From IMG/VR virus record IMGVR_UViG_3300036835_000437: a DNA stretch of 20,000 bases, one strand, 5' to 3'. The stretch comes from an uncultured virus (IMG/VR IMGVR_UViG_3300036835_000437). Lineage: Duplodnaviria; Heunggongvirae; Uroviricota; Caudoviricetes. The position numbers were made by a program, and so were the translations under genes. A model generated the notes under the pieces. That model saw only the letters and a program-made list of their open reading frames with translations, searched no databases and was not told the DNA's origin. Positions 1,375 through 19,648 of this stretch are shown in pieces (position 1 is the stretch's first letter; each line of letters begins with the position of its first letter).

Positions 1375-1810
1375 GCAGCATGGCCTCGATCTCTTCGCGC
1401 AGGTTGGCGCGCGTGATCCCCGGCAGAATCTCTTCGCAGATCACGGTCGTGATCCTGTCCGTCAGAAGGCGGAGCTGCTCATCGCTGATTCGCGTGAGGC
1501 TCTTCGCACGGCTCTCGATCTTGCGTGTGTGCGGGTCGTACACACCCTTCGAGAAACCGACCCGCTTCTTCAGGCTGTCCATCGCATCGTCCTTGTCCAA
1601 GAATAAGTCCGTATTGTCCGCAACCTTGTGAACCAAGCACCACAGATACCGTAATGCCTGGATGTTCTTCTCGCGTCTGAGGGACGCCATCACCTCAGCA
1701 TCCAGGCTGATGACCCGCAGGTCCTCGTCCGCCATCTCGCTGCTCGGGAACAGTCCGACCTCGCCCCGGTACTTAGCCTTGCGTTTGGTCAGGAACGTCT
1801 CGATTGTCAT
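1358..1810 (-). CDS. DUF1367/NinB-like phage recombination-region protein
   Basis: Pattern R.KN...RYLW.LV..VADN ... LK...G ... KSL..ISDEQ...TDR...VI..EILPG, lying directly downstream of ERF. Confidence 0.65.
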   Translation of the reverse strand: MTIETFLTKRKAKYRGEVGLFPSSEMADEDLRVISLDAEVMASLRREKNIQALRYLWCLVHKVADNTDLFLDKDDAMDSLKKRVGFSKGVYDPHTRKIESRAKSLTRISDEQLRLLTDRITTVICEEILPGITRANLREEIEAMLRERTA

Positions 1811-2948
1811 CGGACGGGTTCACCCTCTGCTCAGCGCGCTGGAACTCCGCCAGCAGCATGCTCCAATCGCTGTCATCGAACTCCTGCTCGCGCGGCGATA
1901 CGTTCTGGTTCCAGAACGCTTCGATGGCTTCCAGGCTCTGTAGCTGACCGAGCTGCCCGGCCACCCAGTTCATGAACTCGCCAGCGTCTGCCGGCGCTGC
2001 GCCCCCACTGACCTCGGAGAGATCGTTCAGCCGGCGCGTGACCGCGACCTGGATCGTATCGTAGGTGCCGGGGAAGTTGTCGCTGATGTTCTGCAGGATC
2101 GGTTCGTTGGCAGCATCCCAGGCCTTCACCTCGTCCACTGTCTGCGCCTTGCCGACAGAGCGTATGAAAGCTGACGCCCACTCGTCTGGGCCCTTGCCTG
2201 GGCCAAGCACGATGCGCTGCGGGGTATCCTCACCGACCTGCTTCAGCTCTGCGTCGCGTTCCATGCGCGATGCGGTCGCAGCGGTCGTCGCATCAGGCCG
2301 CTGCGAAGGCCCCGGCACCGGAGCCTTCTCCTGACGTTGATTCGCGTCGTCGTCCACGTCAGGGAAGTCGCCCGCCGGCACCTGGAACAGCGCCAGCAGG
2401 AAGTACTTCCTGGCGTTGGTGTGGCACTTGGCGACCGCCTTCTCGTCCCAGTTCCCCTTGCGGTCCCTGGAGATGCACAGGCCGGTGTAGCGCGGCTTCT
2501 CTGGCCATATCTCGCCAGACGAGTGGAAGATACTGAACTCGTAGGTCACCGCCAGCCGGTTGCCCTCCAGCACCTCCTTGCCGACCTCGTTCTGGATCAC
2601 CGCCAGCCCGACATTGCCCATCAATGGCGTGATCGCATAGAGCAGGTCCTCCATGCGGGCGTAGGCGTAGCCGAAGTACTCGTTCTTGCCCCGCTTCTCG
2701 ATGGTGCCAACCTTGGACATGACGGCGGCGATGGCGCCGGCAATGTGGCCGACCGGGGCGGGGGTCAGCGCGACGATGCGCTGGGCCTGCTCCGTAGACC
2801 GAAGGCCGGCAAGCCCGCCATTGGTGGGCTTGGGCTGAGCCTGCTCGCGCACGGCAACGGCGCGGCCGGCGATGCCGCCTGGGGTGGGCTGGGGTGTCGG
2901 GCCTGGAACCAGGGGTCGGCGTGGGGTGGTGGTCATACGTGACTCCAT
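1773..2948 (-). CDS. erf: ERF-family single-stranded DNA annealing protein
   Basis: ERF motifs IEKRGKN.YFGYAYARMEDL...I.PLM...GL and AKCHTNARKYFLLALFQVPAGDFPDVD. Long C-terminal extension. Start may be 2936 or 2948. Confidence 0.85.
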   Translation of the reverse strand: MESRMTTTPRRPLVPGPTPQPTPGGIAGRAVAVREQAQPKPTNGGLAGLRSTEQAQRIVALTPAPVGHIAGAIAAVMSKVGTIEKRGKNEYFGYAYARMEDLLYAITPLMGNVGLAVIQNEVGKEVLEGNRLAVTYEFSIFHSSGEIWPEKPRYTGLCISRDRKGNWDEKAVAKCHTNARKYFLLALFQVPAGDFPDVDDDANQRQEKAPVPGPSQRPDATTAATASRMERDAELKQVGEDTPQRIVLGPGKGPDEWASAFIRSVGKAQTVDEVKAWDAANEPILQNISDNFPGTYDTIQVAVTRRLNDLSEVSGGAAPADAGEFMNWVAGQLGQLQSLEAIEAFWNQNVSPREQEFDDSDWSMLLAEFQRAEQRVNPSDDNRDVPDQTQG

Positions 2949-3854
2949 CTAAACGGCCTTCGATTCTTCTATTACGGTAACGCCCGGAACGGTGACCCCC
3001 GCCCGCACAGCCCTGTTGGCGAGCATCTGTACGGTGCCGCGCAGGTCCTCGCTGTCCTTGAAGAAGGCTAGAGCCTTCTCGAAGTCATCGATCCGCGCCT
3101 TCTTGGTCGACTTGAGCGTCTGCGCCCGGCCACGGGTGCCGGCACGGGGACGGGGGGCATCAGCTGCAGCTGGCTCGCCCCCCGCCGCCGCTGCCTCGGC
3201 TTCCTGTTTGCGCTTTGCTTCCAGCGCCTGGAGCCAAGGCGTTAGCAGCTTGTACTTGAGGTTCTTGTAGGTCTCGGCGAGGCCGATGATCGTCACCCAC
3301 TTGACCTGAATCCGCTTCAGCTCGTCGTCGTGCGGCTTGCGCTCTTCTTTGCGACCGTCGTCGGCCTTCTTGCACAGCTCGGCGAGGCGATCGGCGAGGT
3401 TCGCAATACGATCAGCCTCGGCCTGATCGGTGATGGGCGGTCCGTCGAGGCGCCTGGAAGCCTCCTCGGCCAGGGGCTCGATGGCATCCCGTAGCCCTTC
3501 GTAGCTCTCGTCGTCCGGCGGGAGATTGTCCCCCATGGCGACCAGCTCGTGCTCGTCTGGCCAGGGCTTGCCGCGCTGGGCGACGTCGCGGTAGGCCTCC
3601 TCGGTCACCGGGTGCTGGCCGCAGCGGGTCCACAGCTCCAGGGCGCGCTCGGGCGCCACGTCCTCGTCACCGATGCGGCAGTGCAGCTGACCATTCTCAC
3701 CCGGCCAGTAGGCGACGGGCCGGAAGGTTCTCCGCGCGCCGTAGTGCTCCTTGCGCGGCTCGCGATAGAACCCGGCCTGGGGATGGCTGGGGCTCATCTC
3801 GACGGGCCTGCCGCTGAGCCGGTCGTGCCAGTATTGCCATTCCCATTCAGCCAT
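2949..3854 (-). CDS. Phage recombination-region protein, 301 aa; C-half coiled coil ending in VPGV (Gp157/Gam-like architecture, tentative)
   Basis: Start reassigned to ATG 3854 (MAEWEWQYW; GGAGG SD upstream). N-terminal PQAGFYR...PVAYW domain, long helix and a ...RAG..VPGV..IEE terminus. Adjacent to erf. Confidence 0.7.
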   Translation of the reverse strand: MAEWEWQYWHDRLSGRPVEMSPSHPQAGFYREPRKEHYGARRTFRPVAYWPGENGQLHCRIGDEDVAPERALELWTRCGQHPVTEEAYRDVAQRGKPWPDEHELVAMGDNLPPDDESYEGLRDAIEPLAEEASRRLDGPPITDQAEADRIANLADRLAELCKKADDGRKEERKPHDDELKRIQVKWVTIIGLAETYKNLKYKLLTPWLQALEAKRKQEAEAAAAGGEPAAADAPRPRAGTRGRAQTLKSTKKARIDDFEKALAFFKDSEDLRGTVQMLANRAVRAGVTVPGVTVIEESKAV

Positions 3855-4110
3855 TGTTCCTCCGCACGATGTTGCGCCAGACCCGCTCCTTGCCAAGGGC
3901 GCGGCCGGCCGCCTCGATAGTCGCGTTCTGCGGGCGCCGGGTGCCGTCCGGCTTGAACCATGAGCGCATGCAGGCGGCAGAGGGACCACCGTTCTTCACG
4001 ATCTGGGAGAGCTTGGTGTCGCCCCGCATCTGCTGCATCTGGTAGATAACCGGGTCCTTGTCGCGGAATGTGTATGCGCCGTAGCCGTGTCCGTTACGCT
4101 TTGCCATCAC
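3847..4110 (-). CDS. XRE/Cro-like HTH DNA-binding protein
   Basis: LSQIVKNGGPSAACMRSWF...TRRPQNATIEAAGRALG is an XRE-type HTH pattern. Coupled to both neighbours. Confidence 0.7.
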   Translation of the reverse strand: MMAKRNGHGYGAYTFRDKDPVIYQMQQMRGDTKLSQIVKNGGPSAACMRSWFKPDGTRRPQNATIEAAGRALGKERVWRNIVRRNNG

Positions 4111-7484: not shown

Positions 7485-7776
7485 CGAGTTGCTCGATTCC
7501 GACAAGCTCATCGCATGGCTGCGCCAGCAGCCGGCCGATGAGGAGTATCAGTGGAGCGATCCGGTGAAGTGCCTGATGGGGCGCTACATCACCGATGTCG
7601 GCACGCCAGCCGATCTCTACGCCTACAGCGAGATGCCGCACTACCACGAGATCGCCGAGACCAAGCCCTGGACGTTCGGCGCTGCGCTCCAACGTGCCGA
7701 GGCGTTCAGAGAGTTGGCGCCGCCGGCACCGGTGCTGCAGATCGAGGACCGCCATGCAGAGGTCGTTCAAGAGTGA
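7477..7776 (+). CDS. Hypothetical phage protein (LIAWL..QPADEEY...C...PWTFGAAL.RA type)
   Basis: Own GGAGG SD at about 7463-7467 before ATG 7477. Its stop overlaps the helicase GTG. Confidence 0.75.
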   Translation: MPSELLDSDKLIAWLRQQPADEEYQWSDPVKCLMGRYITDVGTPADLYAYSEMPHYHEIAETKPWTFGAALQRAEAFRELAPPAPVLQIEDRHAEVVQE

Positions 7777-9287
7777 AGGAACTGCGCCCTTATCAAGAAG
7801 AAGCCCTCCAGGCGATCCGGCAGACGGTGGGCCAGGGCGTGAAGCGCCTCGTCTGTCAGGCGCCAACGGGAAGCGGCAAGACGGTCCTGGCGGCGACGAT
7901 AGTTGAAGGCGCGCTGCGCAAGGGCAACCGGCTGTGCTTCACGGTGCCGGCGATCGATCTTGTCGATCAGACCGTCGAGATGTTCTACGCGCAGGGCATC
8001 CGCGACATCGGCGTCATCCAGGCCGATCACCAGATGACCAACTGGGCGATGCCGATTCAAGTCGCGTCGATACAGACCATCCGCTCGCGCAAGGTCTATC
8101 CCGAGGCCCAGGTTGTCGTCATTGACGAGTGCCACCAGCTGCACAAGGCACATGTAGCATGGCTACAACACCCTGACTGGCAAGCAGTGCCGTTCATCGG
8201 GCTCAGTGCAACTCCCTGGACGCGCGGCCTCGGGCGCCACTTCGAGACCCTCCTCGTGATGAGCACCACGAAGGAGCTGATCGAACAGGGCTACCTCTCC
8301 AAGTTTCGCGTGTTCGCAGCGGATCATCCCGACCTTTCTCAGGTTAAGGTCGTAGCCGGCGATTACGTCGAGAAGCAGCTGTCCACCGTGATGAGCGAAC
8401 AGCAGCTGATGGCGAACATCATCGAGACCTGGAAGGTGCGCCATGGCAAGGACAAGACATTGGTGTTCGGAGTCGACTGCGCGCATGCCCAGGCGCTTCA
8501 GGCGCGCTTCCTCGACGCTGGCGTCTCGTGCGCGTACCAGGACGCCGGCGCGCCAAGCTCGGAGAGAGCCGCGATCAAGCGGGGGTTCCACGATGGAACA
8601 TATCGTGTGGTTTGCAATGTCGGAACACTCACAACGGGAGTGGACTGGGATGTCCGATGCCTCGTCTTGGCCCGCCCAACCCGTAGCGAGATGCTCTTTG
8701 TGCAGATTCTGGGCCGGGCTCTACGCACGGCTCCTGGCAAGGACTATGCGCTTATTCTCGACCACACGAGCACGCACGAGCGGCTAGGGCTCGTTACCGA
8801 TATCCACCACGAGCGGCTGAGCCAGGGCAAGCTCGATGACAACAAGAGCGTGAAGCGCGGCCCGCCTCTGCCCAGGCCTTGCCCCCGGTGCTCGTGCCTG
8901 CTGGCAGTCGGCCAGAAGGTCTGCGAGGAGTGCGGCTTCGAGCGCAAGATCGTGAGCAAGATCACCGAGAGAGACGGTCAGCTGGTGGAGTTCGATGGGA
9001 CCTTTCGCAAGAAGGGCAAGACCAATCCCGACTTACTGCCCTACACCTACGAGGAGAAGCGGCGGTTCTACGCCCAGCTGCGCGGCCACGAGATCATGAA
9101 GGGCTACAAGACCGGTTGGGCCAAGATGCAGTACCGGGAGAAGTTCAAAGAGCCTTGGCCGCCTTGGCCCTGGGAGCGCGACGCCCCCATGAACCCAGGC
9201 CCAGAGGTGGTGAACTATGTCCGATCCCGTGCCATCGCCTGGGCGAACAGTCCCGACAACCCTCGCAACCGCCCGCGTTCAGCTTGA
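7773..9287 (+). CDS. SF2 DExH helicase, RadD/YejH-like, with C-terminal Zn finger
   Basis: Q motif LRPYQ, Walker A APTGSGKT, Walker B IDECH, motif III SATP, LTTGVD, motif VI QILGRALR, then CPRC..CEEC. Start is GTG 7773 (GTGA overlap), not 7551. Confidence 0.93.
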   Translation: MKELRPYQEEALQAIRQTVGQGVKRLVCQAPTGSGKTVLAATIVEGALRKGNRLCFTVPAIDLVDQTVEMFYAQGIRDIGVIQADHQMTNWAMPIQVASIQTIRSRKVYPEAQVVVIDECHQLHKAHVAWLQHPDWQAVPFIGLSATPWTRGLGRHFETLLVMSTTKELIEQGYLSKFRVFAADHPDLSQVKVVAGDYVEKQLSTVMSEQQLMANIIETWKVRHGKDKTLVFGVDCAHAQALQARFLDAGVSCAYQDAGAPSSERAAIKRGFHDGTYRVVCNVGTLTTGVDWDVRCLVLARPTRSEMLFVQILGRALRTAPGKDYALILDHTSTHERLGLVTDIHHERLSQGKLDDNKSVKRGPPLPRPCPRCSCLLAVGQKVCEECGFERKIVSKITERDGQLVEFDGTFRKKGKTNPDLLPYTYEEKRRFYAQLRGHEIMKGYKTGWAKMQYREKFKEPWPPWPWERDAPMNPGPEVVNYVRSRAIAWANSPDNPRNRPRSA

Positions 9288-13063: not shown

Positions 13064-13435
13064 CTATTTCCCAGCAGAACAGATGCGGGCGATGCGCAAT
13101 GGGATCACCACCGTGCGGTCGCACTCGTCGCAGCACCGGCCCTCCGCTGCCGGCTCGGCGTTGTTGCCGCCCCTCCAGGTGCCCTTGGCGGGGATCGGCT
13201 GGTCACAGATGACGCAGATGAGCGGCTCGGGCAGCGCGCGGAGCTTGCGGTCCACGTAGGAGTAGTTGACCGGATCGTCGCTCTCCACGACACGGGTCTC
13301 GCGCACCATCATCCAGCGCATCGAGAGGTCGTAGACGTTCTGCTCGGCCTCCTCCCTGGTGGCGAAGCGCAGCTGGTTGCCGGTCCACTGTCCAGAGTTG
13401 TCGGCGATCACTTCGGGGGCATAGCTCTTGGGCAT
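13064..13435 (-). CDS. Two-domain small protein with C-terminal Zn finger
   Basis: N-domain W.GNQLRFATREEAE...RW...ETRVVESDDPVNY. C-domain CVIC...GNNAEP..EGRCCDEC...VIP.R. Confidence 0.8.
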   Translation of the reverse strand: MPKSYAPEVIADNSGQWTGNQLRFATREEAEQNVYDLSMRWMMVRETRVVESDDPVNYSYVDRKLRALPEPLICVICDQPIPAKGTWRGGNNAEPAAEGRCCDECDRTVVIPLRIARICSAGK

Positions 13436-13922: not shown

Positions 13923-14507
13923 TCACTCCTCCGCCCTGATCTCGGTGTGCAAGGTCTCGACGCCGGGTTGCCGCTTGCCCATGAACAGTCTCTCCTCGTC
14001 GCCTGGGCGGCACATATGCGGCAGGCAGGCCGACACCGGCACCAGCAGGAAGCGGAAGTTGCCCAGACCCAGCTGATGGCGCCGGCACAGGCGATGGTTG
14101 CCGTCGATCATGGTCTGGTAGCCGTTGCCCCAGTCCACCATGATGCCGGGACGGTCCAGGTCGCGCCCGGGGCTGATCTTGGGCAGTCGCTCGGGCACCA
14201 CGCCGTTGTTGGCGAGGACATGCCGGTAGAAGTCCTCGGGCGTGCGCTCCAGGCGGCACATCTGCGCCGCGATGCGACCAGCAGCGAGCCCGTCCTTGAT
14301 GCTGCGTACATCGAACACGACCGTACCCATGCTCGGCTCGGTGAACGTGAACACCTCGCGCTTCTCGTGGCCCTCCACGATGGTGCCGTCCTCCACCTCG
14401 CGTACCACCTCGATGGTGCGAGGTGCCTCGCGGTGGGCGAGGTCGCGCATGCCGGCGCGGTCCTCGTCGGTAAAGGTATCGAGGAAGACTTCCATGGCGT
14501 TGCTCAT
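13923..14507 (-). CDS. ParB/sulfiredoxin-like N-terminal domain protein
   Basis: DRPGIMV...TMIDGNHRL matches the ParB-N P-I-x-V...IDGxHR motif. No HTH seen. Start reassigned to ATG 14507. Confidence 0.7.
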   Translation of the reverse strand: MSNAMEVFLDTFTDEDRAGMRDLAHREAPRTIEVVREVEDGTIVEGHEKREVFTFTEPSMGTVVFDVRSIKDGLAAGRIAAQMCRLERTPEDFYRHVLANNGVVPERLPKISPGRDLDRPGIMVDWGNGYQTMIDGNHRLCRRHQLGLGNFRFLLVPVSACLPHMCRPGDEERLFMGKRQPGVETLHTEIRAEE

Positions 14508-14508
14508 G

Positions 14509-15231
14509 TCAGCGAATCCTCTCAAGCTCGGTGCGCGCGGCAGCGATTCTGTCGCCCAGGCGCTGGGGAGGGTGCTCGCCATAGATGGCCGTTCGCTGCT
14601 CGACGTAATCGGTGAGCGCCTCGCGCAGCATCTCGTTGCGTACCTCATGGCGGTAACGGTTGCGCTCGTCACTCCAGGCCTTATCGTCCCTCTCGGCCTG
14701 GGTGATCAGCTGATAGCGCTCGATCTCGTTAGTGGTCGCGATGGTGTTGTGCTTGAGCGCCCACTGCACAGCCGTGTCGAACTCATCGCGGTTGATACCG
14801 TGCGTGGTCCTGAACCCATTGACCTTGGGGTGCGTCAGGCTGATCCAGGTCTTCTCATCAACGCGGCCCTTGAGGTCGAAGCCGGCGCGACTCCACTGCT
14901 GCCTGTTCTCGAACGTCGCGCGCCACTCGCCATCGATCAGCACCTTGTAGTGGTAGAGCGTGCGCGGCTTCTTGCTGCGCCAGCTGGTGGCGGTAAACGG
15001 GGCGGCCTCGTAGGTGATGGTGGGCATGGTCGTTGGTCCTTTCATGGGGTTGATGGGTTCTCGGCGGATAATCTGTGCGCGCTGGCATTCCCAGCCACGC
15101 TCCTCGGCGACTGCGCCGGCCACTGCTAGGGCAGCTGCGTCATCGGTGGCGTTCACGGTGAGGCTCTGGGCGTCGAAGACATCCAGCGAGCCCTCGGGCC
15201 GTACGTGCACCAGGAGGAGATAGCGGGTCAT
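14509..15231 (-). CDS. Hypothetical protein; probably two in-frame units, with an internal start at 15027
   Basis: ATG 15231 (GGAGGGAG SD) gives MTRYLLLVHV.... An internal CAACCCCATGAAAGG leader precedes the in-frame ATG 15027 (MPTITYEA...). Confidence 0.65.
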   Translation of the reverse strand: MTRYLLLVHVRPEGSLDVFDAQSLTVNATDDAAALAVAGAVAEERGWECQRAQIIRREPINPMKGPTTMPTITYEAAPFTATSWRSKKPRTLYHYKVLIDGEWRATFENRQQWSRAGFDLKGRVDEKTWISLTHPKVNGFRTTHGINRDEFDTAVQWALKHNTIATTNEIERYQLITQAERDDKAWSDERNRYRHEVRNEMLREALTDYVEQRTAIYGEHPPQRLGDRIAAARTELERIR

Positions 15232-15232
15232 G

Positions 15233-15553
15233 TCACTCTCCCTCCAACTGCAGCGCAGCGAAGCGGGCGCTCGCCAGCATGGCGATGATGTCGGTGTCGA
15301 GCCCTGGCCGCGCCTCCAGGCGGCTGAGCCGGCCCAGGATGTCGTGCAGGTGCTTGCAGGTGCGGTGGTGGCGCCAGCCTGGGCACGAGCACCCCCACGA
15401 GCCATCGCTGCGCCGCTGCGCCACGTTATAGAGCGCATCGGAGGTGTGCGAGCGCACGACGAATCGGTTCGTCCACTGGGCGTTGTCGGGCATGAGGGCA
15501 GAGCCAATCTGCTCAGCGATCTCGGCGACCTGGGCGCGCTGGTTAGTGGCCAT
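15233..15553 (-). CDS. SWIM zinc-finger protein
   Basis: V.S....LYNV.....WGCSCPGW.HHRTCKHL matches SWIM CxC-xn-CxH. GGAAGGA SD. Confidence 0.8.
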   Translation of the reverse strand: MATNQRAQVAEIAEQIGSALMPDNAQWTNRFVVRSHTSDALYNVAQRRSDGSWGCSCPGWRHHRTCKHLHDILGRLSRLEARPGLDTDIIAMLASARFAALQLEGE

Positions 15554-15878
15554 GGTGCCAAGTCCTTCCACCGTCATGGCTGTGAACTGCAGTGCGCTGA
15601 TCTACGGTGCGACCGGCGAGTGCCTGGGCTTGACGCACAAGCTCGATGAACATCGGGCTCCCGGTCTTCGCTATCGTTCTGAAGGCACAAGCATCACTCA
15701 CACCGTCCTTGCTGGCGGCGTCCCAGCCGGCGAAGGCTGGGGCACCGGTTGCCGGGTCGATCACCAGGGTGATGCGCTTGGCGGCGAGTCCCTGGGCGAG
15801 GCGGACGACAGCAGCGCGGACCTCGGCCGCACGCTGCTGGATCGTCTGCCTGGGCTTCAACATCGTCTCGCAAGACAC
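15543..15878 (-). CDS. Hypothetical protein with C-terminal HSHDGGRTWHHGH; partner of the AAA ATPase module
   Basis: GAAGGGAG SD with GTG start. Motifs MSC.T, G..AF.GW, DGVSDACAFR and a His-rich tail. Confidence 0.8.
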   Translation of the reverse strand: MSCETMLKPRQTIQQRAAEVRAAVVRLAQGLAAKRITLVIDPATGAPAFAGWDAASKDGVSDACAFRTIAKTGSPMFIELVRQAQALAGRTVDQRTAVHSHDGGRTWHHGH

Positions 15879-15880
15879 GG

Positions 15881-16693
15881 TCAGTCTCCCTTCTTGGCGC
15901 TAAGGTCCGAGAGGGCGGCGTTCACCTCGGGCTGATCGCGCCAGTAGGTGACCGGCTCGTCGTCCAGGTCCACGGGGCGGCCCTCGGCCTCAGTGGCGGC
16001 CTCGACCGGCGCGGCGTCGTCCAGGTCTAGGAAGGAAACGCGAGCCTCCTCCAGGCGCTCGATGGCGACGGCGTCCACCTCGATGGCGGCGCCCTCGCCG
16101 GCCTTGACGATGTCCCTGGCGACTTGTCTGGCGACCGTGATGGCCTTGGCGACCTTCTCGTTGGCGCCTGGCTCCAGCATCTTGCCCAGGGTGCGCGCCT
16201 CGTTGGCGGCCTTGCGGATAGCCTGGGGGTCCAGGTTCTTGACGCCATCGGACATAGCCGAGACGAGGTCGCGGACCTGTTCGTTGATGGCGCGGACGGC
16301 CTCGACATCGTCGCTGGAGACGCGGCCGATGAGGACGGTCACGCCCACGTAGGTCCAGGTCGCGGTCTCGTTGAACGCCTCGGCCAGGGCGCGAGCCTCG
16401 CGCACAGCCTGCCGAAGCTTGTCCTCGCGCTCGACCGGGCACATCAGGCCGAAGTCGCCGGCCTTGACGCAGGCCGACTGAATCTTGGAGCGGGCAGCGC
16501 TGCGGACCTTGCTGGCGCGCTTCTGCTCGCCGGGGTCCTTGGTTGTGCGCTCGGTCTCCCAGCGGGCGCGGCCCTCGCCCTCGATGGTGATGTGGTCCTG
16601 TTCAAGCTCAAGCGTCTTGTACTTGACGTTGCCCTTGATGGTGGTGCGGGCGCGGACCAGGAGGCCTGGGCGGAGGGTTGCGATGTCTGACAT
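15881..16693 (-). CDS. 270-aa largely helical protein (DUF3150-like, tentative)
   Basis: N-terminal beta strands, long A/E/R-rich helices and an acidic tail ...FLDLDD...VDLDD. Own promoter and leader. Confidence 0.75.
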   Translation of the reverse strand: MSDIATLRPGLLVRARTTIKGNVKYKTLELEQDHITIEGEGRARWETERTTKDPGEQKRASKVRSAARSKIQSACVKAGDFGLMCPVEREDKLRQAVREARALAEAFNETATWTYVGVTVLIGRVSSDDVEAVRAINEQVRDLVSAMSDGVKNLDPQAIRKAANEARTLGKMLEPGANEKVAKAITVARQVARDIVKAGEGAAIEVDAVAIERLEEARVSFLDLDDAAPVEAATEAEGRPVDLDDEPVTYWRDQPEVNAALSDLSAKKGD

Positions 16694-16725
16694 TGTCGTG
16701 TCCTTTCAGGTGGCGGTTGGGGTGC

Positions 16726-16764
16726 CGCCCTGGCATACATAGGCGCATGCCAGGGCGATGTCAA
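16726..16764 (-). promoter_or_regulatory. Sigma70 promoter embedded in a perfect 11-bp inverted repeat
   Basis: TTGACA (16764-16759), N17, TATGTA (16741-16736). Arms CGCCCTGGCAT (16726-16736) and ATGCCAGGGCG (16747-16757). Confidence 0.7.
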
Positions 16765-16770
16765 TACATG

Positions 16771-18396
16771 TCATGCCAAGTCTAGCGCACGCTCGGTGGA
16801 GAACGCCGGACGCTCGGCATCGGGGGTGGTGGCGAGGCGGGCGCGCTTGCTCCAGGTCCGCAGCCGCTTCACCTGATCGGCCATGCTATCCACCAGCGGC
16901 ACAACCTTGCTGGCGGCGTTGAGGATGTCGGTGGCTGCGAGCGCACGCTGACCATCGGTGAAGCTCGCGAACAACGCCTCCTGCACAAGGTTGGCGACCT
17001 CTGCCGCTGTGAAGGTGTCGGTGGCTTTGACGATGGCCGCCGTCTCCTCGTCATTGAACGGCAGGCGCTTGAACTTGGCCAAGGTGACGTTGAGCACCTC
17101 GGCACGCTCGCGCGCGGTCGGAACGTCCAGGAACCACATCTCGTCCCAGCGCCCCTTGCGGAGAAGCTCGACGGGGAGCCGGTCGGGATCATTGGCCGTC
17201 GCCAGGATGAAAGCCTCGGACTTGCGGTCGTTCATCCAGGAGAGCAACACCGCGAGCTTGTCTGCGGCCACGCCGCCGTCGCCGGCAGGACCCGCGCCAC
17301 CGGAGAGGGTCTTGTCCACCTCATCGAGCCAGAGCACGCAGGGCCCCAGGGCATCGACGGTGTCGAGCATGGCGCGGATATTCTGCTCGCTCTCGCCCAG
17401 GAACTTGCTGCCGGTGGCGCCCAGGTCGCCCTGGACGAGCGGGCACAGCCATGACGTGGCGAGGGCTTGCGCAGTGAAGGTCTTGCCGCTGCCGGGGATG
17501 CCCACGAGCAAGCAGCCCTTGGGGCGTTGGATGCCGTAGGCGCGCGCCTCGGGCGTCCAGGCGAGCTTGCGCTGGATAAGCCAGGGCTTGAGGGCATCGA
17601 GCCCACCAACGGCGTCCAGGCCGCCAGGGAGCGGCTCAACCCAACGCAGCATGCCGTTGGAGGCGATGATGCGCTTCTTCTCGTCAGAGATCACCGCTGG
17701 CTCGATGGCGCGGCTTTGAACGATGCTCTTGGCGAAGCAGCCCTCGGCCTGGGGGCCGGTGAGGCCGACAGCGGCATCGATGATGAGGTCGCGCTTGCCG
17801 TTGAGCGGCTGGACCTTGCCGGGGTTCTGCCGGATGGCAGTGGCAATGGCCACATCGGCCATGCGGCCAAGCTCTTCGCGGTCGGGCAGTGGCCAATCGA
17901 CCGTGACGGCGTCGTTGGCGACATCGCTCGGGACCTTGGCCCCAGGTGCAAGCACGATGACGCTGGTGCCGGTGGCAGGCAGGGTGCGGGAGAGGTTGCG
18001 CAGCCAGCGGGTGACGGTGATGCCTGGGCCGCCATCGCACCACTTGTGCAGGTCGCGGAGAATCCAGACCACCTTGCCGGCCTCGGGGGCGCGCTCACTG
18101 ATCTTCTTCAGGAGGTTCACCGCATCGATGGGTGCGGAGCTTCCGGCGGGCACTTGCTGAAGAGCAGCAGCGATAGGATCGGAGGTGTCGGCACCCATGC
18201 CGGGGACCGGCTTGCCGGTGGCATCGGTGGCGCCTGCGGCGCAGTCCCAGAAGAACGGCATATAGCCTGCGCTCTTGCAGGCGTCGATCAGGCAAAGCTC
18301 GATGCGGCGCTCTTCGCGGGAGTTGACCCAGAGCACGCCGTTACGTGCCTTGACGAGCGTAGCGATGTCATCGGATTGGACTTTGGACTTGGACAT
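16771..18396 (-). CDS. AAA+ ATPase, Ycf46/SpoVK-like (degenerate N-terminal AAA plus active C-terminal AAA)
   Basis: EERR and ILRDLH in the N-domain. VGGLD.LK.WL, Walker A GIPGSGKT, pore loop SKFLGESE, Walker B VLWLDEVDK, sensor ATAN, SRH LP.ELLRKGRWDE and LRTW. Confidence 0.92.
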   Translation of the reverse strand: MSKSKVQSDDIATLVKARNGVLWVNSREERRIELCLIDACKSAGYMPFFWDCAAGATDATGKPVPGMGADTSDPIAAALQQVPAGSSAPIDAVNLLKKISERAPEAGKVVWILRDLHKWCDGGPGITVTRWLRNLSRTLPATGTSVIVLAPGAKVPSDVANDAVTVDWPLPDREELGRMADVAIATAIRQNPGKVQPLNGKRDLIIDAAVGLTGPQAEGCFAKSIVQSRAIEPAVISDEKKRIIASNGMLRWVEPLPGGLDAVGGLDALKPWLIQRKLAWTPEARAYGIQRPKGCLLVGIPGSGKTFTAQALATSWLCPLVQGDLGATGSKFLGESEQNIRAMLDTVDALGPCVLWLDEVDKTLSGGAGPAGDGGVAADKLAVLLSWMNDRKSEAFILATANDPDRLPVELLRKGRWDEMWFLDVPTARERAEVLNVTLAKFKRLPFNDEETAAIVKATDTFTAAEVANLVQEALFASFTDGQRALAATDILNAASKVVPLVDSMADQVKRLRTWSKRARLATTPDAERPAFSTERALDLA

Positions 18397-18424
18397 GTTC
18401 AGATACCTTTCATGCGTTGGGATA

Positions 18425-18468
18425 GGTTACTGTAACCGGTATATGCCACCGTGACATCCTGGCGTCAA
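18425..18468 (-). promoter_or_regulatory. Sigma70-type promoter with two operator-like palindromes
   Basis: TTGACG (18468-18463), N17, CATATA (18445-18440). Palindromes GGTTAC-T-GTAACC (18425-18437) and TGCCAC-C-GTGACA (18444-18456). Confidence 0.7.
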
Positions 18469-18668
18469 GCCCCACATCCTTCGCAAACGAGGGAGACATG
18501 GCGCACGCTGGCGCCAGGGAACTTGGCCTGGAGGTCGGCCCGCACGAGGTGAGCCGGCGCATCGGCGGTGTAGGGCAGCGGATAGGTGCCCTCGGGGAAG
18601 CCTGGGCCGGTGAACGTGGCAGTCCAGCAGTGGCCTGGGCGGTTGGGGCGGATGACGATGGTGGACAT
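18465..18668 (-). CDS. Hypothetical protein
   Basis: CCCAATGAAAGG leader. PLPYT...A..VRADL...FPG motif and a CEGC tail. Confidence 0.7.
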   Translation of the reverse strand: MSTIVIRPNRPGHCWTATFTGPGFPEGTYPLPYTADAPAHLVRADLQAKFPGASVRHVSLVCEGCGA

Positions 18669-18734
18669 GGGAAACACCTTTCATTGGGCTAGAGCGGGCC
18701 AGGGACGGCGGGATTGCCGCCCTTGGTAGGGAAG

Positions 18735-18932
18735 TTAGTTCACCAGCACCTGCCAGCCCTCATCGATCAGCTGATGGACAAGGGCGCGGGCGGCGCGGTG
18801 ATCGGTGTTGAAGTTTGCAGCAAGACCTTGCCAGCCCTCCACCGGGAAGTTCTCCTCGGCGAAGGCGATGGCGTCGGCTGACACCGCCTGGATGTTCCAG
18901 ACGGTGCCGAAGTCGGTGATACGGAAGTCCAT
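18735..18932 (-). CDS. Small hypothetical phage protein
   Basis: MDF.I.D.GTVW....S..A.AF.EEN...EGWQ.....HR.A..LV..L.DEG. GGGGAGG SD and TGATG coupling. Confidence 0.8.
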   Translation of the reverse strand: MDFRITDFGTVWNIQAVSADAIAFAEENFPVEGWQGLAANFNTDHRAARALVHQLIDEGWQVLVN

Positions 18933-19648
18933 CAGACGGCCTCCCCGGCGAAAGTGGCGGGCTTGCTACCCCATGCCACGCCGTAGTGCTTGGCGCAGGT
19001 CTCGCCGTAGCCCACTGCGGTCGAGCGCTCATCGGAGAGGGCGCGGTTGCAGAAGCAGCACTTGCCGGTCAGGCGCCCGTGCTCGGCCGCGATCTTAGCT
19101 GGGTCACGAGCAAGCTCACCCAGGCGGCGTGCGATGGCGTCGGTGCGCCCGTTGGCGGCGCGCGCCGGCTGATACTCGCCCTCGACGGTGACGCGGCCCA
19201 GCCAAGCGCGGGCGGGCTCGCCATAGTCGTTGGTGGTCTCGTAGGCGTCGGTGGTGACGGTGAGAGAGCCGGGGACCTTGGCCTTGGGGCCAGCGATGGT
19301 GAGGCGGATGCCCCAGCCTTCCAGGTCGTTGTCCTGGTCCACCTCGGGGACGCACAGCACGATCGCCGGGCGCTTGAGGTGGGTCTTCGCCTTGGCGAAC
19401 AGCGCCAGCACGCCGGTCAGCTGACCCACAGCCAGGGAGGCCTGGGCGGCTGCGGCCTGGGGGACAACGGACCAGAGCGTATCGCCGTAGCGGTTGCGGC
19501 CACGCGGCTCGGCCAGGGTCACGTACTTGGTGCCGCCAGCGCGGGTGCTGATGGCGACAACGTCGCCGGCCTTGGCGAGGCTGGGGGAGGGGATGCGGAC
19601 ACCCCAGGTGCCGTCATCGAGCTTAACGAAGGATGCGGGGAAAGACAT
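18932..19648 (-). CDS. DUF6011-like zinc-ribbon protein
   Basis: C-terminal HGRLTGKCCFCNRALSDERSTAVGYGETCAKHYG. N-terminal small beta domain (DGTWGVRI...GDVVAISTRAGGTK.VTL). Confidence 0.8.
   Translation of the reverse strand: MSFPASFVKLDDGTWGVRIPSPSLAKAGDVVAISTRAGGTKYVTLAEPRGRNRYGDTLWSVVPQAAAAQASLAVGQLTGVLALFAKAKTHLKRPAIVLCVPEVDQDNDLEGWGIRLTIAGPKAKVPGSLTVTTDAYETTNDYGEPARAWLGRVTVEGEYQPARAANGRTDAIARRLGELARDPAKIAAEHGRLTGKCCFCNRALSDERSTAVGYGETCAKHYGVAWGSKPATFAGEAV

What the first reader, a model, noticed from the sequence alone, without database searches (positions are those of the whole stretch)
15233..18396. Candidate undescribed phage system: Ycf46-like AAA+ ATPase, 270-aa helical protein, HSHDGG His-tail protein and SWIM finger
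Seen: four contiguous co-oriented genes in the early region. The ATPase has an intact Walker A/B, an aromatic pore loop (KFLGE) and an Arg finger, behind a degenerate first AAA domain. The ATPase and the 270-aa protein both end in similar acidic motifs (RALDLA; FLDLDD, RPVDLDD). The 111-aa protein has an N-terminal Cys, DACAF and a HSHDGGRTWHHGH metal-binding-like tail, and overlaps the SWIM gene. Established: Ycf46-type ATPases belong to the classical Cdc48/Vps4-like unfoldase clade and in bacteria commonly travel with DUF1257 (Ycf35) and DUF2997, which I do not recognise here; SWIM proteins often accompany ATPase-chaperone conflict modules. Inference: a phage-encoded protein-remodelling machine (unfoldase, polymer/substrate, adaptor and Zn-finger recogniser) used early for host takeover or anti-defence. 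I know of no functional characterisation.
Basis: partly seen in the sequence, partly recalled or inferred. Interest (0 to 1): 0.75.

Follow-up and report, generated by a model that had tools for sequence, protein, structure and literature searches.

The report
Three-gene phage AAA+ unfoldase cassette
This phage carries a strictly conserved set of three genes, a protein-unfolding motor and two partner proteins with no known fold, that is a phage-specific version of a widespread but still unexplained bacterial motor cassette; the neighbouring zinc-finger gene is not part of it.

Summary
The four ORFs exist as described, but the conserved unit has three genes, not four. These are the AAA+ ATPase (16771-18396), a 270-aa protein (15881-16693) and a 111-aa protein (15543-15878), all on the minus strand.

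In 80 viral loci chosen by the 270-aa protein, the ATPase lies upstream in 80 of 80. The 111-aa gene lies downstream in 77 of 80, and the 3 misses are cut contigs. The SWIM gene occurs in 2 of 80. All 34 Cluster O mycobacteriophage records carry the trio.

The ATPase has an N-terminal domain shared with bacterial ATPases that are followed by DUF1257 and DUF2997 (9 of 9 Myxococcota loci). That supports the "Ycf46-type" call.

Two relatives carry ATPase, 270-aa protein, then a DUF1257-position gene and DUF2997. So the 270-aa protein is an extra component, and the 111-aa protein is the alternative to DUF1257 plus DUF2997.

New here: the ATPase ends in R-x-L-D-L, and the 270-aa tail carries two to four copies of the same peptide.

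Neither partner matches a solved structure. The function is untested. I read it as a new variant of a known but uncharacterised cassette, of moderate to high interest.

The parts
16771..18396 (-). AAA+ ATPase, 541 aa (phrog_8638). It has an N-terminal ~258-aa non-P-loop domain, one active classical-clade AAA domain, and a flexible C-terminal tail.
   Evidence: ORF. PF00004 E 5e-24. phrog_8638 E 2.5e-134. Best solved relatives are Cdc48/p97 D2, E 5e-49. Found upstream of the 270-aa gene in 80 of 80 loci.
17623..18396 (-). ATPase N-terminal domain (residues 1-258). This domain defines the subfamily.
   Evidence: No Pfam match and no solved-structure match. A profile of this part alone finds 23 bacterial-genome loci, including 9 Myxococcota ATPases followed by DUF1257 and DUF2997. 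Atlas structure matches at TM 0.74-0.85 to N-terminal parts of viral AAA ATPases and to 223-aa cyanobacterial proteins.
17131..17514 (-). Active AAA domain core (residues 295-422). Walker A is at 17479-17502, pore loop KFLG at 17395-17406, Walker B at 17317-17334 and SRH arginines at 17149-17160.
   Evidence: Invariant columns.
16774..16791 (-). ATPase C-terminal docking-type peptide R-A-L-D-L-A (residues 536-541).
   Evidence: R536 is nearly invariant and D539 invariant. 71 of 81 ATPases end this way against 16 of 6555 background ORFs. The Myxococcota relatives end R-K-L-E-V or similar.
15881..16693 (-). 270-aa partner (phrog_11021). It has an alpha/beta N-domain (16319-16693), a four-helix bundle (16016-16306) and a disordered acidic tail (15884-16015).
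   Evidence: phrog_11021 E 4e-50. No Pfam match in 43 members. At least 946 relatives in metagenome proteins. AF2 pLDDT 84. No solved-fold match beyond generic helical bundles.
15959..16033 (-). Tail motifs of the 270-aa protein: F-L-D-L-D-D (residues 221-226) and G-R-P-V-D-L-D-D (residues 238-245).
   Evidence: F221, D223 and D242 are invariant and R239 nearly so. 68 of 70 family members have 2-4 [LIVMF]-D-[LIFMV] motifs in the tail. Many end in R-x-L-D/E-L, like the ATPase.
15543..15878 (-). 111-aa partner (phrog_11784). Small alpha/beta protein with probable Cys/His metal ligands (C3, C64, H99, H101) and a C-terminal Asp-box hairpin (15558-15584).
   Evidence: phrog_11784 E 7.4e-22. Conservation. 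Sub-threshold BNR/Asp-box match in 58 of 67 members. AF2 pLDDT 89.5. No fold match: Foldseek best E 3.7, VIA best Z 4.0. 176 representative clusters.
15233..15577 (-). SWIM-type zinc-finger ORF, 114 aa (motif at 15350-15391). It is a neighbour and NOT part of the conserved cassette.
   Evidence: C-x-C-x8-C-x-H read. PF04434 E 0.042, below cut-off. Present in 2 of 80 loci. One hit in 50,697 phage records.

Best explanation
What it is: a self-contained three-gene phage cassette, and a phage-specific variant of the Ycf46-type (DUF1257/DUF2997-associated) AAA+ ATPase cassette.

Shown:
- Gene 1 is an ATPase with the subfamily's own N-terminal domain, one catalytically intact Cdc48-D2-like AAA domain with an aromatic pore loop, and a tethered C-terminal peptide R-x-L-D-L.
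- Gene 2 (270 aa) is an extra component. In relatives it can sit in front of DUF2997 and a DUF1257-position gene.
- Gene 3 (111 aa) occupies the slot that DUF1257 plus DUF2997 fill elsewhere. The two alternatives were never found together in the 34 trio-bearing viral records searched.
- The SWIM gene is a chance neighbour.

Inferred mechanism:
- The ATPase forms a hexameric unfoldase or remodeller.
- The R-x-hydrophobic-D/E-hydrophobic peptide is a docking signal.
- The 270-aa protein carries two to four copies of the ATPase's own tail peptide on a disordered acidic tail. It is therefore recruited to the same receptor site as the ATPase tail. That site could be on the ATPase ring, on the 111-aa protein, or on a third protein.
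- Once recruited, the 270-aa protein acts as adaptor or as the threaded substrate.
- The 111-aa Cys/His protein is the cofactor that replaces DUF1257/DUF2997.
- The cassette lies among recombination and replication genes. In Cluster O phages its products were seen in infected cells or lysate, and the ATPase was not found in purified virions. It therefore acts in the cytoplasm during infection, not in the virion.
For: Conservation:
- ATPase upstream in 80 of 80 loci; 111-aa gene downstream in 77 of 80, with the 3 misses being loci that end within about 150 nt.
- ORF clustering of the 80 loci plus the window finds only these three real gene families in 78-80 of 81 sources. The next true neighbour family is in 19; three larger clusters were alternative-frame artefacts over the ATPase gene.
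- 34 of 34 Cluster O records have all three genes.

ATPase type:
-.
- An N-domain profile finds 9 Myxococcota ATPases (full-length HMM scores 455-529 bits). These are followed by DUF1257 (Pfam E 2e-21 for L107; tblastn in 9 of 9) and by DUF2997 (regex in 8 of 9, the ninth read by eye; Pfam precomputed).
- Pseudomonas phage SM1 and Rhizobium phage P11VFA have ATPase, a ~200-aa protein, DUF1257 and DUF2997. Rhodobacter phage RcKickapoo has the same order, but Pfam recognises only its DUF2997.

Hybrids:
- L098 has ATPase, 270-aa homolog, DUF1257 (E 3.5e-12) and DUF2997 (E 1.4e-10).
- L097 has ATPase, 270-aa homolog, an 'MSH...' ORF with no Pfam match, and DUF2997 (E 8.6e-7).

Exclusivity:
- DUF1257 and DUF2997 are each found in 0 of 34 trio-bearing viral records, and in 0 of the 25 that are at least 90% complete.

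Tail motif.

Context: ERF recombinase, exonuclease and SF2 helicase lie in the window.

Expression: the Cluster O paper (passages read) found gp96 peptides only in infected cells and detected Catdawg gp95 and gp93 in lysate.
Against: - No physical interaction has been shown.
- No receptor for the tail peptide has been identified.
- The last residue of the ATPase tail and that of the 270-aa motif do not co-vary.
- The SM1, P11VFA and RcKickapoo ATPases lack the R-x-L-D-L end, so the peptide is not universal in the wider family.
- Hexamer formation and unfolding are inferred from family membership only.
- Metal binding by the 111-aa protein is inferred from conserved Cys and His alone. I had no model coordinates to check the geometry.
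- The name 'Ycf46' itself was not tested against a plastid or cyanobacterial Ycf46 sequence.
- The biological target and the benefit to the phage are unknown.
Confidence: 0.6

Rival explanations
1. The two partners are simply very divergent DUF1257 (270-aa protein) and DUF2997 (111-aa protein). On this reading the cassette is the ordinary Ycf46/DUF1257/DUF2997 operon in disguise.
For: - Same gene order after a homologous ATPase.
- The beta-hairpin of the 111-aa protein (V-x-x-V-G-P-x-G-A-x-A-F, followed by G-x-x-D-x-C and a helix) looks like the DUF2997 core. hhalign aligns 16-17 columns there, at probability 9% and 19.7%.
Against: - hhalign of the 270-aa family against DUF1257 gives probability 0.06%.
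- The 270-aa protein co-occurs with genuine DUF1257 and DUF2997 in L098, and with DUF2997 in L097, so it cannot be their replacement.
- No DUF1257 match appears among the families listed for the 43 members of the 270-aa family. No DUF2997 match appears among those listed for the 67 members of the 111-aa family. Both scans were at E <= 1, and only the 25 most-matched families are shown.
- Neither Pfam model matches the contig at E <= 10.
- For the 111-aa protein alone, a distant DUF2997 origin remains open.
Confidence: 0.12
2. One reading: a four-component machine in which the SWIM zinc finger is the substrate recogniser.
For: The SWIM ORF overlaps the 111-aa gene by 35 nt and is co-oriented with it. 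It recurs next to the cassette in L054 and L055.
Against: - Present in 2 of 80 loci, and those two are near-identical to each other.
- Absent from the Corndog locus.
- Only one hit in 50,697 phage records, in an unrelated 595-kb uncultured phage.
- No PHROG family.
Confidence: 0.03
3. The tail peptides are host-directed rather than internal. On this reading R-x-L-D-L mimics a short linear motif that docks onto a conserved host hub, such as the sliding clamp, a protease ring or another hexamer. The ATPase would then dismantle or hijack that host complex, for takeover or anti-defence.
For: - The peptide sits on long variable linkers and is multivalent, as host-directed docking motifs often are.
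- The cassette's flanks are not conserved.
- The cassette was found in 10 contigs of 185,579 species genomes (two scans, some loci on the same contig). Nine are metagenome bins and one is an isolate scaffold.
- It is carried by phages with GC content from 53 to 71%, which fits an accessory module.
- Cyanobacterial Ycf46 is reported to interact with the KaiC hexamer (passages of PMC13683863).
Against: - No host partner was identified.
- The phage-encoded clamp idea failed: DnaN is in 1 of 34 trio-bearing records.
- The motif does not match the clamp-binding consensus as I recall it.
- Cellular relatives in Myxococcota carry the same kind of ATPase tail, which argues for a receptor inside the system.
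Confidence: 0.2

Closest known systems
Bacterial Ycf46-type AAA+ ATPase with DUF1257 (Ycf35) and DUF2997
   Same: - Same ATPase architecture, including the N-terminal domain: 29-36% identity over residues 1-254, full-length HMM scores 455-529 bits.
- The ATPase is followed directly by small partner genes.
- The ATPase ends in R-K-L-E-V or similar.
- No molecular mechanism is in print in what I searched.
   Different: - The phage cassette has no DUF1257 or DUF2997.
- It adds the 270-aa protein and uses the 111-aa protein instead.
- The Myxococcota copies sit in a larger FHA/vWA/tandem-AAA/eCIS-core neighbourhood.
Phage cassettes of Pseudomonas phage SM1, Rhizobium phage P11VFA and Rhodobacter phage RcKickapoo: ATPase, a ~200-230-aa protein, DUF1257, DUF2997
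   Same: - Related ATPase: 27.6-30.7% identity, covering 45-77% of the query.
- Same order: ATPase, a mid-sized unknown protein, then small partners.
   Different: - Their mid-sized proteins show no profile similarity to the 270-aa family: hhalign probability 0.1-0.3% for the two SM1 proteins tested.
- Their ATPases lack the R-x-L-D-L end.
- They keep DUF2997, and in SM1 and P11VFA also DUF1257.
Cdc48/p97/VAT (classical-clade AAA+ unfoldases)
   Same: - Best solved-structure relatives of the active domain: E 5e-49 to the D2 of yeast Cdc48.
- Aromatic pore loop and two SRH arginines.
- From recall: p97 also uses a flexible C-terminal peptide to recruit cofactors.
   Different: - Only one active AAA domain.
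- The N-terminal 258 residues are unrelated by sequence to the Cdc48 N or D1 domains.
- No ubiquitin-type partners.
DUF3150 (PF11348) phage and plasmid proteins
   Same: The 270-aa model aligns over its full length to several 268-315-aa uncultured-phage models, one of them named DUF3150. Foldseek E 3e-4 to 8e-3, probability 0.99-1.00, TM 0.38-0.46.
   Different: - No DUF3150 HMM match in the contig or in Corndog at E <= 10.
- DUF3150 is not among the 25 most-matched families shown for the 43 members at E <= 1.
- TM is below 0.5.
- DUF3150 itself has no known function: one paper holds the word.
SspB-ClpX type adaptor logic (recalled, as an analogy only)
   Same: A folded adaptor body carrying a flexible tail whose terminal peptide docks on the unfoldase.
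   Different: No sequence or fold relation was tested or expected. Here the unfoldase itself carries the same peptide.

Membership tests
Classical-clade AAA+ ATPase (PF00004) | Walker A GxxGxGK[ST], Walker B hhhhDE, pore-loop aromatic-hydrophobic-Gly, and second region of homology with two arginines | tested here: met
   PF00004 85.7 bits against a 21.2 cut-off. G299/G302/K305, D358/E359, K331/G334 and R413/R416 are invariant, and F332 is >=90% conserved, in 45 sequences. Cdc48 D2 E 5e-49.
Ycf46-type (DUF1257/DUF2997-associated) AAA+ ATPase | Shared N-terminal ~250-aa domain in front of a single active AAA domain | tested here: met
   An N-domain-only profile finds ATPases in 9 Myxococcota loci (tblastn E 1e-22 to 1e-29), all followed by DUF1257 and DUF2997. 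Atlas structure matches include cyanobacterial proteins.
Ycf46-type (DUF1257/DUF2997-associated) AAA+ ATPase | Neighbouring DUF1257 gene | tested here: not met
   PF06868 has no match in the contig at E <= 10. 0 of 34 trio-bearing viral records at E <= 0.01. hhalign of the 270-aa family against DUF1257 gives probability 0.06%.
Ycf46-type (DUF1257/DUF2997-associated) AAA+ ATPase | Neighbouring DUF2997 gene | tested here: inconclusive
   PF11211 has no match at E <= 10 in the contig. 0 of 34 records. It is not among the 25 families shown for the 67 members. However, hhalign of the 111-aa family against DUF2997 aligns the hairpin at probability 9-20%.
Ycf46-type (DUF1257/DUF2997-associated) AAA+ ATPase | Orthology to plastid or cyanobacterial Ycf46 proper | not tested
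   The libraries hold no Ycf46 model and I had no named Ycf46 sequence in hand. The only hint is the cyanobacterial N-domain look-alikes in the Atlas.
DUF3150 (PF11348), for the 270-aa protein | Match to the family HMM | tested here: not met
   No match at E <= 10 in G001, Corndog, SM1, P11VFA or RcKickapoo. Not among the 25 most-matched families shown for 43 members.
DUF3150 (PF11348), for the 270-aa protein | Same fold | tested here: inconclusive
   One DUF3150-named BFVD model at E 1.4e-3, TM 0.41, 307 columns.
PspA/ESCRT-III, for the 270-aa protein | Long helical-hairpin fold, with a PspA_IM30 or Snf7 HMM match | tested here: inconclusive
   Neither family is among those listed for 43 members. 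The model shows an alpha/beta domain plus a compact four-helix bundle. VIA hits are generic bundles at Z <= 9.8, including MIT-type three-helix bundles.
SWIM zinc finger (PF04434), for the 114-aa ORF | C-x-C-x(n)-C-x-H signature and an HMM match | tested here: inconclusive
   The signature C63-x-C65-x8-C74-x-H76 is present. The HMM scores 13.8 bits, below the 19.6 cut-off.
BNR/Asp-box (PF02012), for the tail of the 111-aa protein | S-x-D-x-G-x-T-W hairpin motif | tested here: inconclusive
   The motif S100-H-D-G-G-R-T-W107 is present and conserved. The HMM match is sub-threshold in 58 of 67 members, best E 0.0029.

The most novel reading that the evidence does not exclude
The R-x-hydrophobic-D/E-hydrophobic end peptide is a previously unnoticed docking code of Ycf46-type unfoldases. 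On this reading, phages have built a new machine around it. A 270-aa protein of unknown fold displays up to four copies of the motor's own tail peptide. A 111-aa Cys/His protein, also of unknown fold, replaces DUF1257 and DUF2997. The cassette would then capture and dismantle a conserved host complex early in infection, or jam the host's own Ycf46-type stress or defence module.
Probability: 0.2. Interest if true: 0.8.

Novelty: new variant of a known kind. Interest (0 to 1): 0.6.

Why it matters
- **Open mechanism.** Ycf46-type ATPases are widespread in cyanobacteria, plastids and other bacteria. In the papers I read they are tied to stress and growth arrest, yet their mechanism and the roles of DUF1257 and DUF2997 remain unknown.
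- **Abundance.** The phage cassette is common. The 270-aa protein has at least 946 relatives. Patterns from its alignment found 111 viral contigs encoding a relative. The 111-aa protein falls into 176 clusters at 50% identity.
- **Compact and modular.** The cassette has only three genes, and natural hybrids show which parts are interchangeable.
- **Testable handle.** The shared tail peptide gives a concrete way to find binding partners.
- **Tractable hosts.** Cluster O mycobacteriophages grow on the laboratory strain Mycobacterium smegmatis mc2155, and a cultured Bradyrhizobium carries the cassette. The phage version may therefore be the easiest route into the biochemistry of the whole family.
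- **Fold discovery.** Two confidently predicted folds without a solved counterpart are of interest in their own right.

Tried and rejected
- **Complex prediction.** ATPase + 111-aa + 270-aa proteins, own alignments, 270-aa as partner. Verdict 'no answer', score 0.01, so it says nothing either way.
- **Phage sliding-clamp link.** Cluster O phages encode a clamp and the tail motifs looked loosely clamp-binding. DnaN is in only 1 of 34 trio-bearing records. Dropped.
- **Fold searches of the 270-aa model.** Foldseek against PDB: best E 0.059. VIA wide: only generic helical bundles on residues 130-230, Z <= 9.8, and the N-domain was barely tested.
- **Fold searches of the 111-aa model.** Foldseek against PDB: best E 3.7. 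VIA wide: best Z 4.0.
- **ESM Atlas with the 270-aa protein.** No usable hit.
- **hhalign of the 270-aa and 111-aa profiles against SM1 gp027, gp028 and gp029.** Probability <= 0.3%.
- **Solved structures for DUF1257 and DUF2997.** None found.
- **Apparent fusions.** An apparent 270-aa/111-aa fusion in L077 came from my ORF script; a stop codon separates the genes. The longer 111-aa hits look like gene-call run-ons. One (P0389) joins a 270-aa C-terminal fragment to a 111-aa sequence, and I give it no weight.
- **Co-variation of the last tail residue between the ATPase and the 270-aa protein.** None seen.
- **Sigma-70 promoter and terminator scan of 14900-18800.** 0 and 0 found.
- **megablast of the region against phages.** No match.
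- **Single-protein scan of viral contigs with the ATPase.** Gave only one close relative.
- **Earlier notes of this scan.** Nothing on this sequence. The word search returned other Cdc48-like cassettes that did not bear on this one.
- **PF30482.** Could not be looked up.

Full report
**Where the window lies.** The window is the right-hand 20 kb of a 49.9-kb IMG/VR viral contig (handle G001), estimated 72% complete. GC content is 0.59-0.68 across the window and 0.67 over the finding. The region from about 9.5 kb to 19.7 kb is read on the minus strand. The window also encodes an ERF-family recombinase (1773-2948, E 6e-18), an exonuclease-like protein (2949-3989, phrog_10477), an SF2 helicase (7551-9287, plus strand) and a DUF6011 protein (18932-19648).

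**The observation.** The four ORFs are present at the stated coordinates.
- The 541-aa protein has one AAA domain (PF00004, residues 295-422, E 5e-24) and an AAA lid.
- Its closest solved relatives are the D2 domains of Cdc48/p97 (E 5e-49).
- Walker A, Walker B, the K-F-L-G pore loop and two SRH arginines are conserved in 45 aligned family members.
- Residues 1-258 match no Pfam model. A 33-sequence profile of this part matches no solved chain (best E 1.3).
- 'Degenerate first AAA domain' is therefore not established. By eye the conserved pattern does resemble an AAA alpha/beta subdomain without a P-loop, ending in (V/I)-(E/D)-W-P-L-P-D-R-x-E. The ESM Atlas assigns the region to a separate family, PF30482, which is not in the Pfam copy at hand.
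- The 270-aa and 111-aa proteins have no Pfam, NCBIfam or PADLOC match. Each belongs to a PHROG of unknown function: phrog_11021 (E 4e-50) and phrog_11784 (E 7e-22).
- The 114-aa ORF carries a C-x-C-x8-C-x-H signature, with a sub-threshold SWIM match.

**The unit is three genes.**
- tblastn against 50,697 phage records finds full-length ATPase relatives at about 40% identity in 34 Cluster O mycobacteriophage records. The 270-aa and 111-aa proteins hit 34 Cluster O mycobacteriophage records each. In Corndog they are gp96, gp95 and gp93, with an unrelated 86-aa gene between the last two.
- The 270-aa protein has at least 946 relatives among metagenome proteins.
- An alignment of 43 of these (A1) found 111 viral contigs encoding a relative, of which 80 were kept.
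- In those 80 loci the ATPase is upstream in 80. The 111-aa gene is downstream in 77, and the other three loci end within about 150 nt of the 270-aa gene. The SWIM ORF is in 2, L054 and L055, which are near-identical to each other.
- I clustered all ORFs of the 80 loci plus the window. Three clusters turned out to be alternative-frame artefacts over the ATPase gene. Setting them aside, only the three families are found in 78-80 of 81 sources, and the next real family is in 19.
- Gaps between the genes are mostly under 150 nt. Some loci have inserts; in Bradyrhizobium sp. Tv2a-2 the insert is an HNH endonuclease.
- The carriers are mostly 60-120-kb contigs. 25 of the 34 checked are at least 90% complete by CheckV. 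GC content ranges from 0.53 to 0.71.
- Two pattern scans of one genome for each of 185,579 species found the 270-aa gene in 10 contigs. Nine are metagenome bins, and one is a 380-kb scaffold of the isolate Bradyrhizobium sp. Tv2a-2.

**Relation to Ycf46, DUF1257 and DUF2997.**
- A profile of the ATPase N-domain alone (A3) found 23 loci in bacterial genome contigs.
- Nine of them, all Myxococcota bins, hold an ATPase with 29-36% identity in the N-domain and 455-529 bits to the full-length profile, but no 270-aa or 111-aa homolog.
- In all nine the next gene is DUF1257 (Pfam E 2e-21 for L107; tblastn in 9 of 9). The one after that is a ~68-aa DUF2997. My regular expression found it in 8 of 9; the ninth, L108, I read by eye in the same output. 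Pfam PF11211 is precomputed on its relatives.
I did not compare with a named Ycf46.
- Other cultured phages with a more distant ATPase (27.6-30.7% identity) have ATPase, a ~200-230-aa unknown protein, then small partners. In SM1 and P11VFA, Pfam recognises both DUF1257 and DUF2997. In RcKickapoo it recognises only DUF2997.
- Decisive are two hybrids. L098 (a Kofleriaceae bin) has ATPase, a 270-aa homolog, DUF1257 (E 3.5e-12) and DUF2997 (E 1.4e-10). L097 (an alphaproteobacterial bin) has ATPase, a 270-aa homolog, an 'MSH...' ORF that Pfam does not recognise, and DUF2997 (E 8.6e-7).
- Conversely, neither DUF1257 nor DUF2997 is found in any of the 34 trio-bearing viral records.
- The 270-aa protein is therefore an additional component, and the 111-aa protein is the alternative to DUF1257 plus DUF2997.
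- Profile comparison finds no relation between the 270-aa family and DUF1257 (probability 0.06%). It finds a weak, local one between the 111-aa family and DUF2997: 16-17 columns over the beta-hairpin, probability 9-20%.

**The partners themselves.**
- The 270-aa model (pLDDT 84) has three long strands, two helices and two further strands in residues 10-125. A four-helix bundle spans 130-226, followed by a disordered tail.
- It has no significant match among solved structures.
- In BFVD it matches its Cluster O homolog (E 2.6e-24). More weakly, but over the full length, it matches five uncultured-phage proteins of 268-315 aa at probability 0.99-1.00. One of these is labelled DUF3150 (E 3e-4 to 8e-3, TM 0.38-0.46).
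- The DUF3150 HMM does not match.
- Invariant residues in the first alignment include R8, P9, G10, N22, Y25, W45, T47, E56, C75, C85, N108 and R189. Some of these drop to nearly invariant in the second alignment.
- The 111-aa model (pLDDT 89.5) has a long helix, a hairpin, three short helices and a C-terminal hairpin. It has no structural neighbour: best Foldseek E 3.7 and best VIA Z 4.0.
- Its invariant C3, C64 and H101, its nearly invariant H99, and also D62 and D102 suggest a metal site. I could not check the geometry.
- The 'HSHDGGxTW' tail fits the Asp-box consensus.
- A profile search of 1.84 billion representatives gives 176 clusters, nearly all stand-alone proteins of 105-120 aa.

**A shared tail peptide.**
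- Aligning 68 ATPases shows that, after a conserved helix (L-R-x-W-A-x-G-R-A-R-P-A-[ST]) and a variable linker of about 15 residues, the protein ends in R-x-[LIV]-D-[LIFM], usually as the very last residues.
- The pattern R..D[LIFMV] within the last 8 residues is found in 71 of 81 ATPases, 16 of 81 270-aa proteins and 16 of 6555 other ORFs of the same loci.
- The 270-aa tail has an invariant F-L-D-L-type motif, and 10-20 residues later an R-x-[LIV]-D-[LFI] motif. Often a third copy sits at its own C-terminus, for example ...P-R-Q-L-D-L or ...S-R-A-L-D-L.
- 68 of 70 distinct tails carry 2-4 such motifs.
- The Myxococcota ATPases end R-K-L-E-V, R-K-I-E-V, F-K-V-E-V or R-K-L-E-L.
- The SM1, P11VFA and RcKickapoo ATPases do not end this way.
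- The hybrids keep the motifs.

**Mechanism.**
- Shown: an intact classical-clade AAA motor, strict three-gene linkage, interchangeability of the third slot, and a tail peptide shared by motor and partner.
- Inferred: the motor is a hexameric unfoldase. The peptide is a docking signal. The 270-aa protein mimics the motor's own tail, so it is brought to the same site, either as adaptor or as the substrate whose disordered tail enters the pore. The 111-aa protein is a metal-binding cofactor.
- The receptor could be the ATPase N-domain, the 111-aa protein or a host protein; I cannot tell which.
- The biological role (host takeover, anti-defence, or a chaperone step in replication) is open.
- In Cluster O phages, ATPase peptides were found only in infected cells. 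Catdawg gp95 and gp93 were detected in an unpurified lysate (passages of PMC4351075).

**Literature.**
- For PMC4351075 I read passages only. It lists the AAA ATPase among the unusual genes, without a function.
- For PMC13683863 I read passages only. It describes the cyanobacterial ycf46 operon as a stress-induced three-gene unit whose ATPase interacts with KaiC, with no mechanism.
- PMC4284462 (one passage) lists a duf2997-ycf35-fed7 gene cluster.
- PMC12870095 (two passages) only uses 'SpoVK/Ycf46/Vps4 family' as an annotation label.
- Full-text searches for Corndog/AAA-ATPase/Cluster O, Ycf46/DUF1257/DUF2997, Ycf46, DUF1257 and DUF3150 found no study of this cassette.
- Subscription journals are not covered by these searches, and I did not open any supplements.

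**Verdict.** This is a real, abundant, strictly conserved three-gene phage cassette. It is a new variant of the known but mechanistically unexplained Ycf46-type cassette. It has two partners without known folds and a newly noticed docking peptide shared by motor and partner. The SWIM finger does not belong to it.

Noticed in passing
L030:4297-6661: In one viral relative the ATPase gene is interrupted exactly between Walker-B residues D358 and E359 by about 820 nt, and the two halves lie in different frames. The ESM Atlas also lists a 147-member cluster of AAA/intein/LAGLIDADG fusions as a structural neighbour of the N-domain. Mobile elements appear to target this gene.
   Followed up: partly
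L102:7777-8406 (Bradyrhizobium sp. Tv2a-2 scaffold): An HNH homing endonuclease (phrog_374, E 7.5e-56) sits between the 270-aa and 111-aa genes of a cassette in a cultured isolate. RcKickapoo has an annotated HNH gene at the equivalent place.
   Followed up: partly
L107:338-10661 and the other Myxococcota loci (L101, L103, L105-L111): The cellular ATPase-DUF1257-DUF2997 trio lies in a larger conserved neighbourhood. Upstream are three FHA-domain proteins, one with a zinc ribbon and one with a vWA domain. Downstream are a 717-aa tandem AAA protein with a winged-helix domain and an eCIS-core-domain protein. It looks like a signalling or conflict island.
   Followed up: partly
window 13064-13435 (minus strand): A 123-aa Cys-rich ORF (C-x2-C ... 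C-C-D-E-C-D) is the most often shared flanking gene. tblastn finds it in 10 of 80 loci, at 44-91% identity, and at varying positions. It has no family match.
   Followed up: no
window 13923-14672 (minus strand): A 249-aa ORF contains 'DGNHR', which I recall as the ParB-like nuclease motif. Corndog has an annotated ParB-like nuclease a few genes downstream of its cassette. Pfam and PHROGs gave no match for the window's ORF.
   Followed up: partly
window 18932-19648 (minus strand): A DUF6011 protein (E 9e-13) lies upstream of the ATPase. It recurs upstream of the cassette in 7 of 80 loci.
   Followed up: no
window 1773-3989 (minus strand): An ERF-family single-strand annealing protein lies next to an exonuclease-like gene (phrog_10477). 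This is a phage recombination pair.
   Followed up: no
ATPase genes of all 80 loci: Alternative-frame and antisense ORFs over the ATPase gene formed large false 'families' in all-against-all BLAST (clusters 0, 4 and 5). This is a high-GC artefact to keep in mind when counting conserved neighbours.
   Followed up: yes
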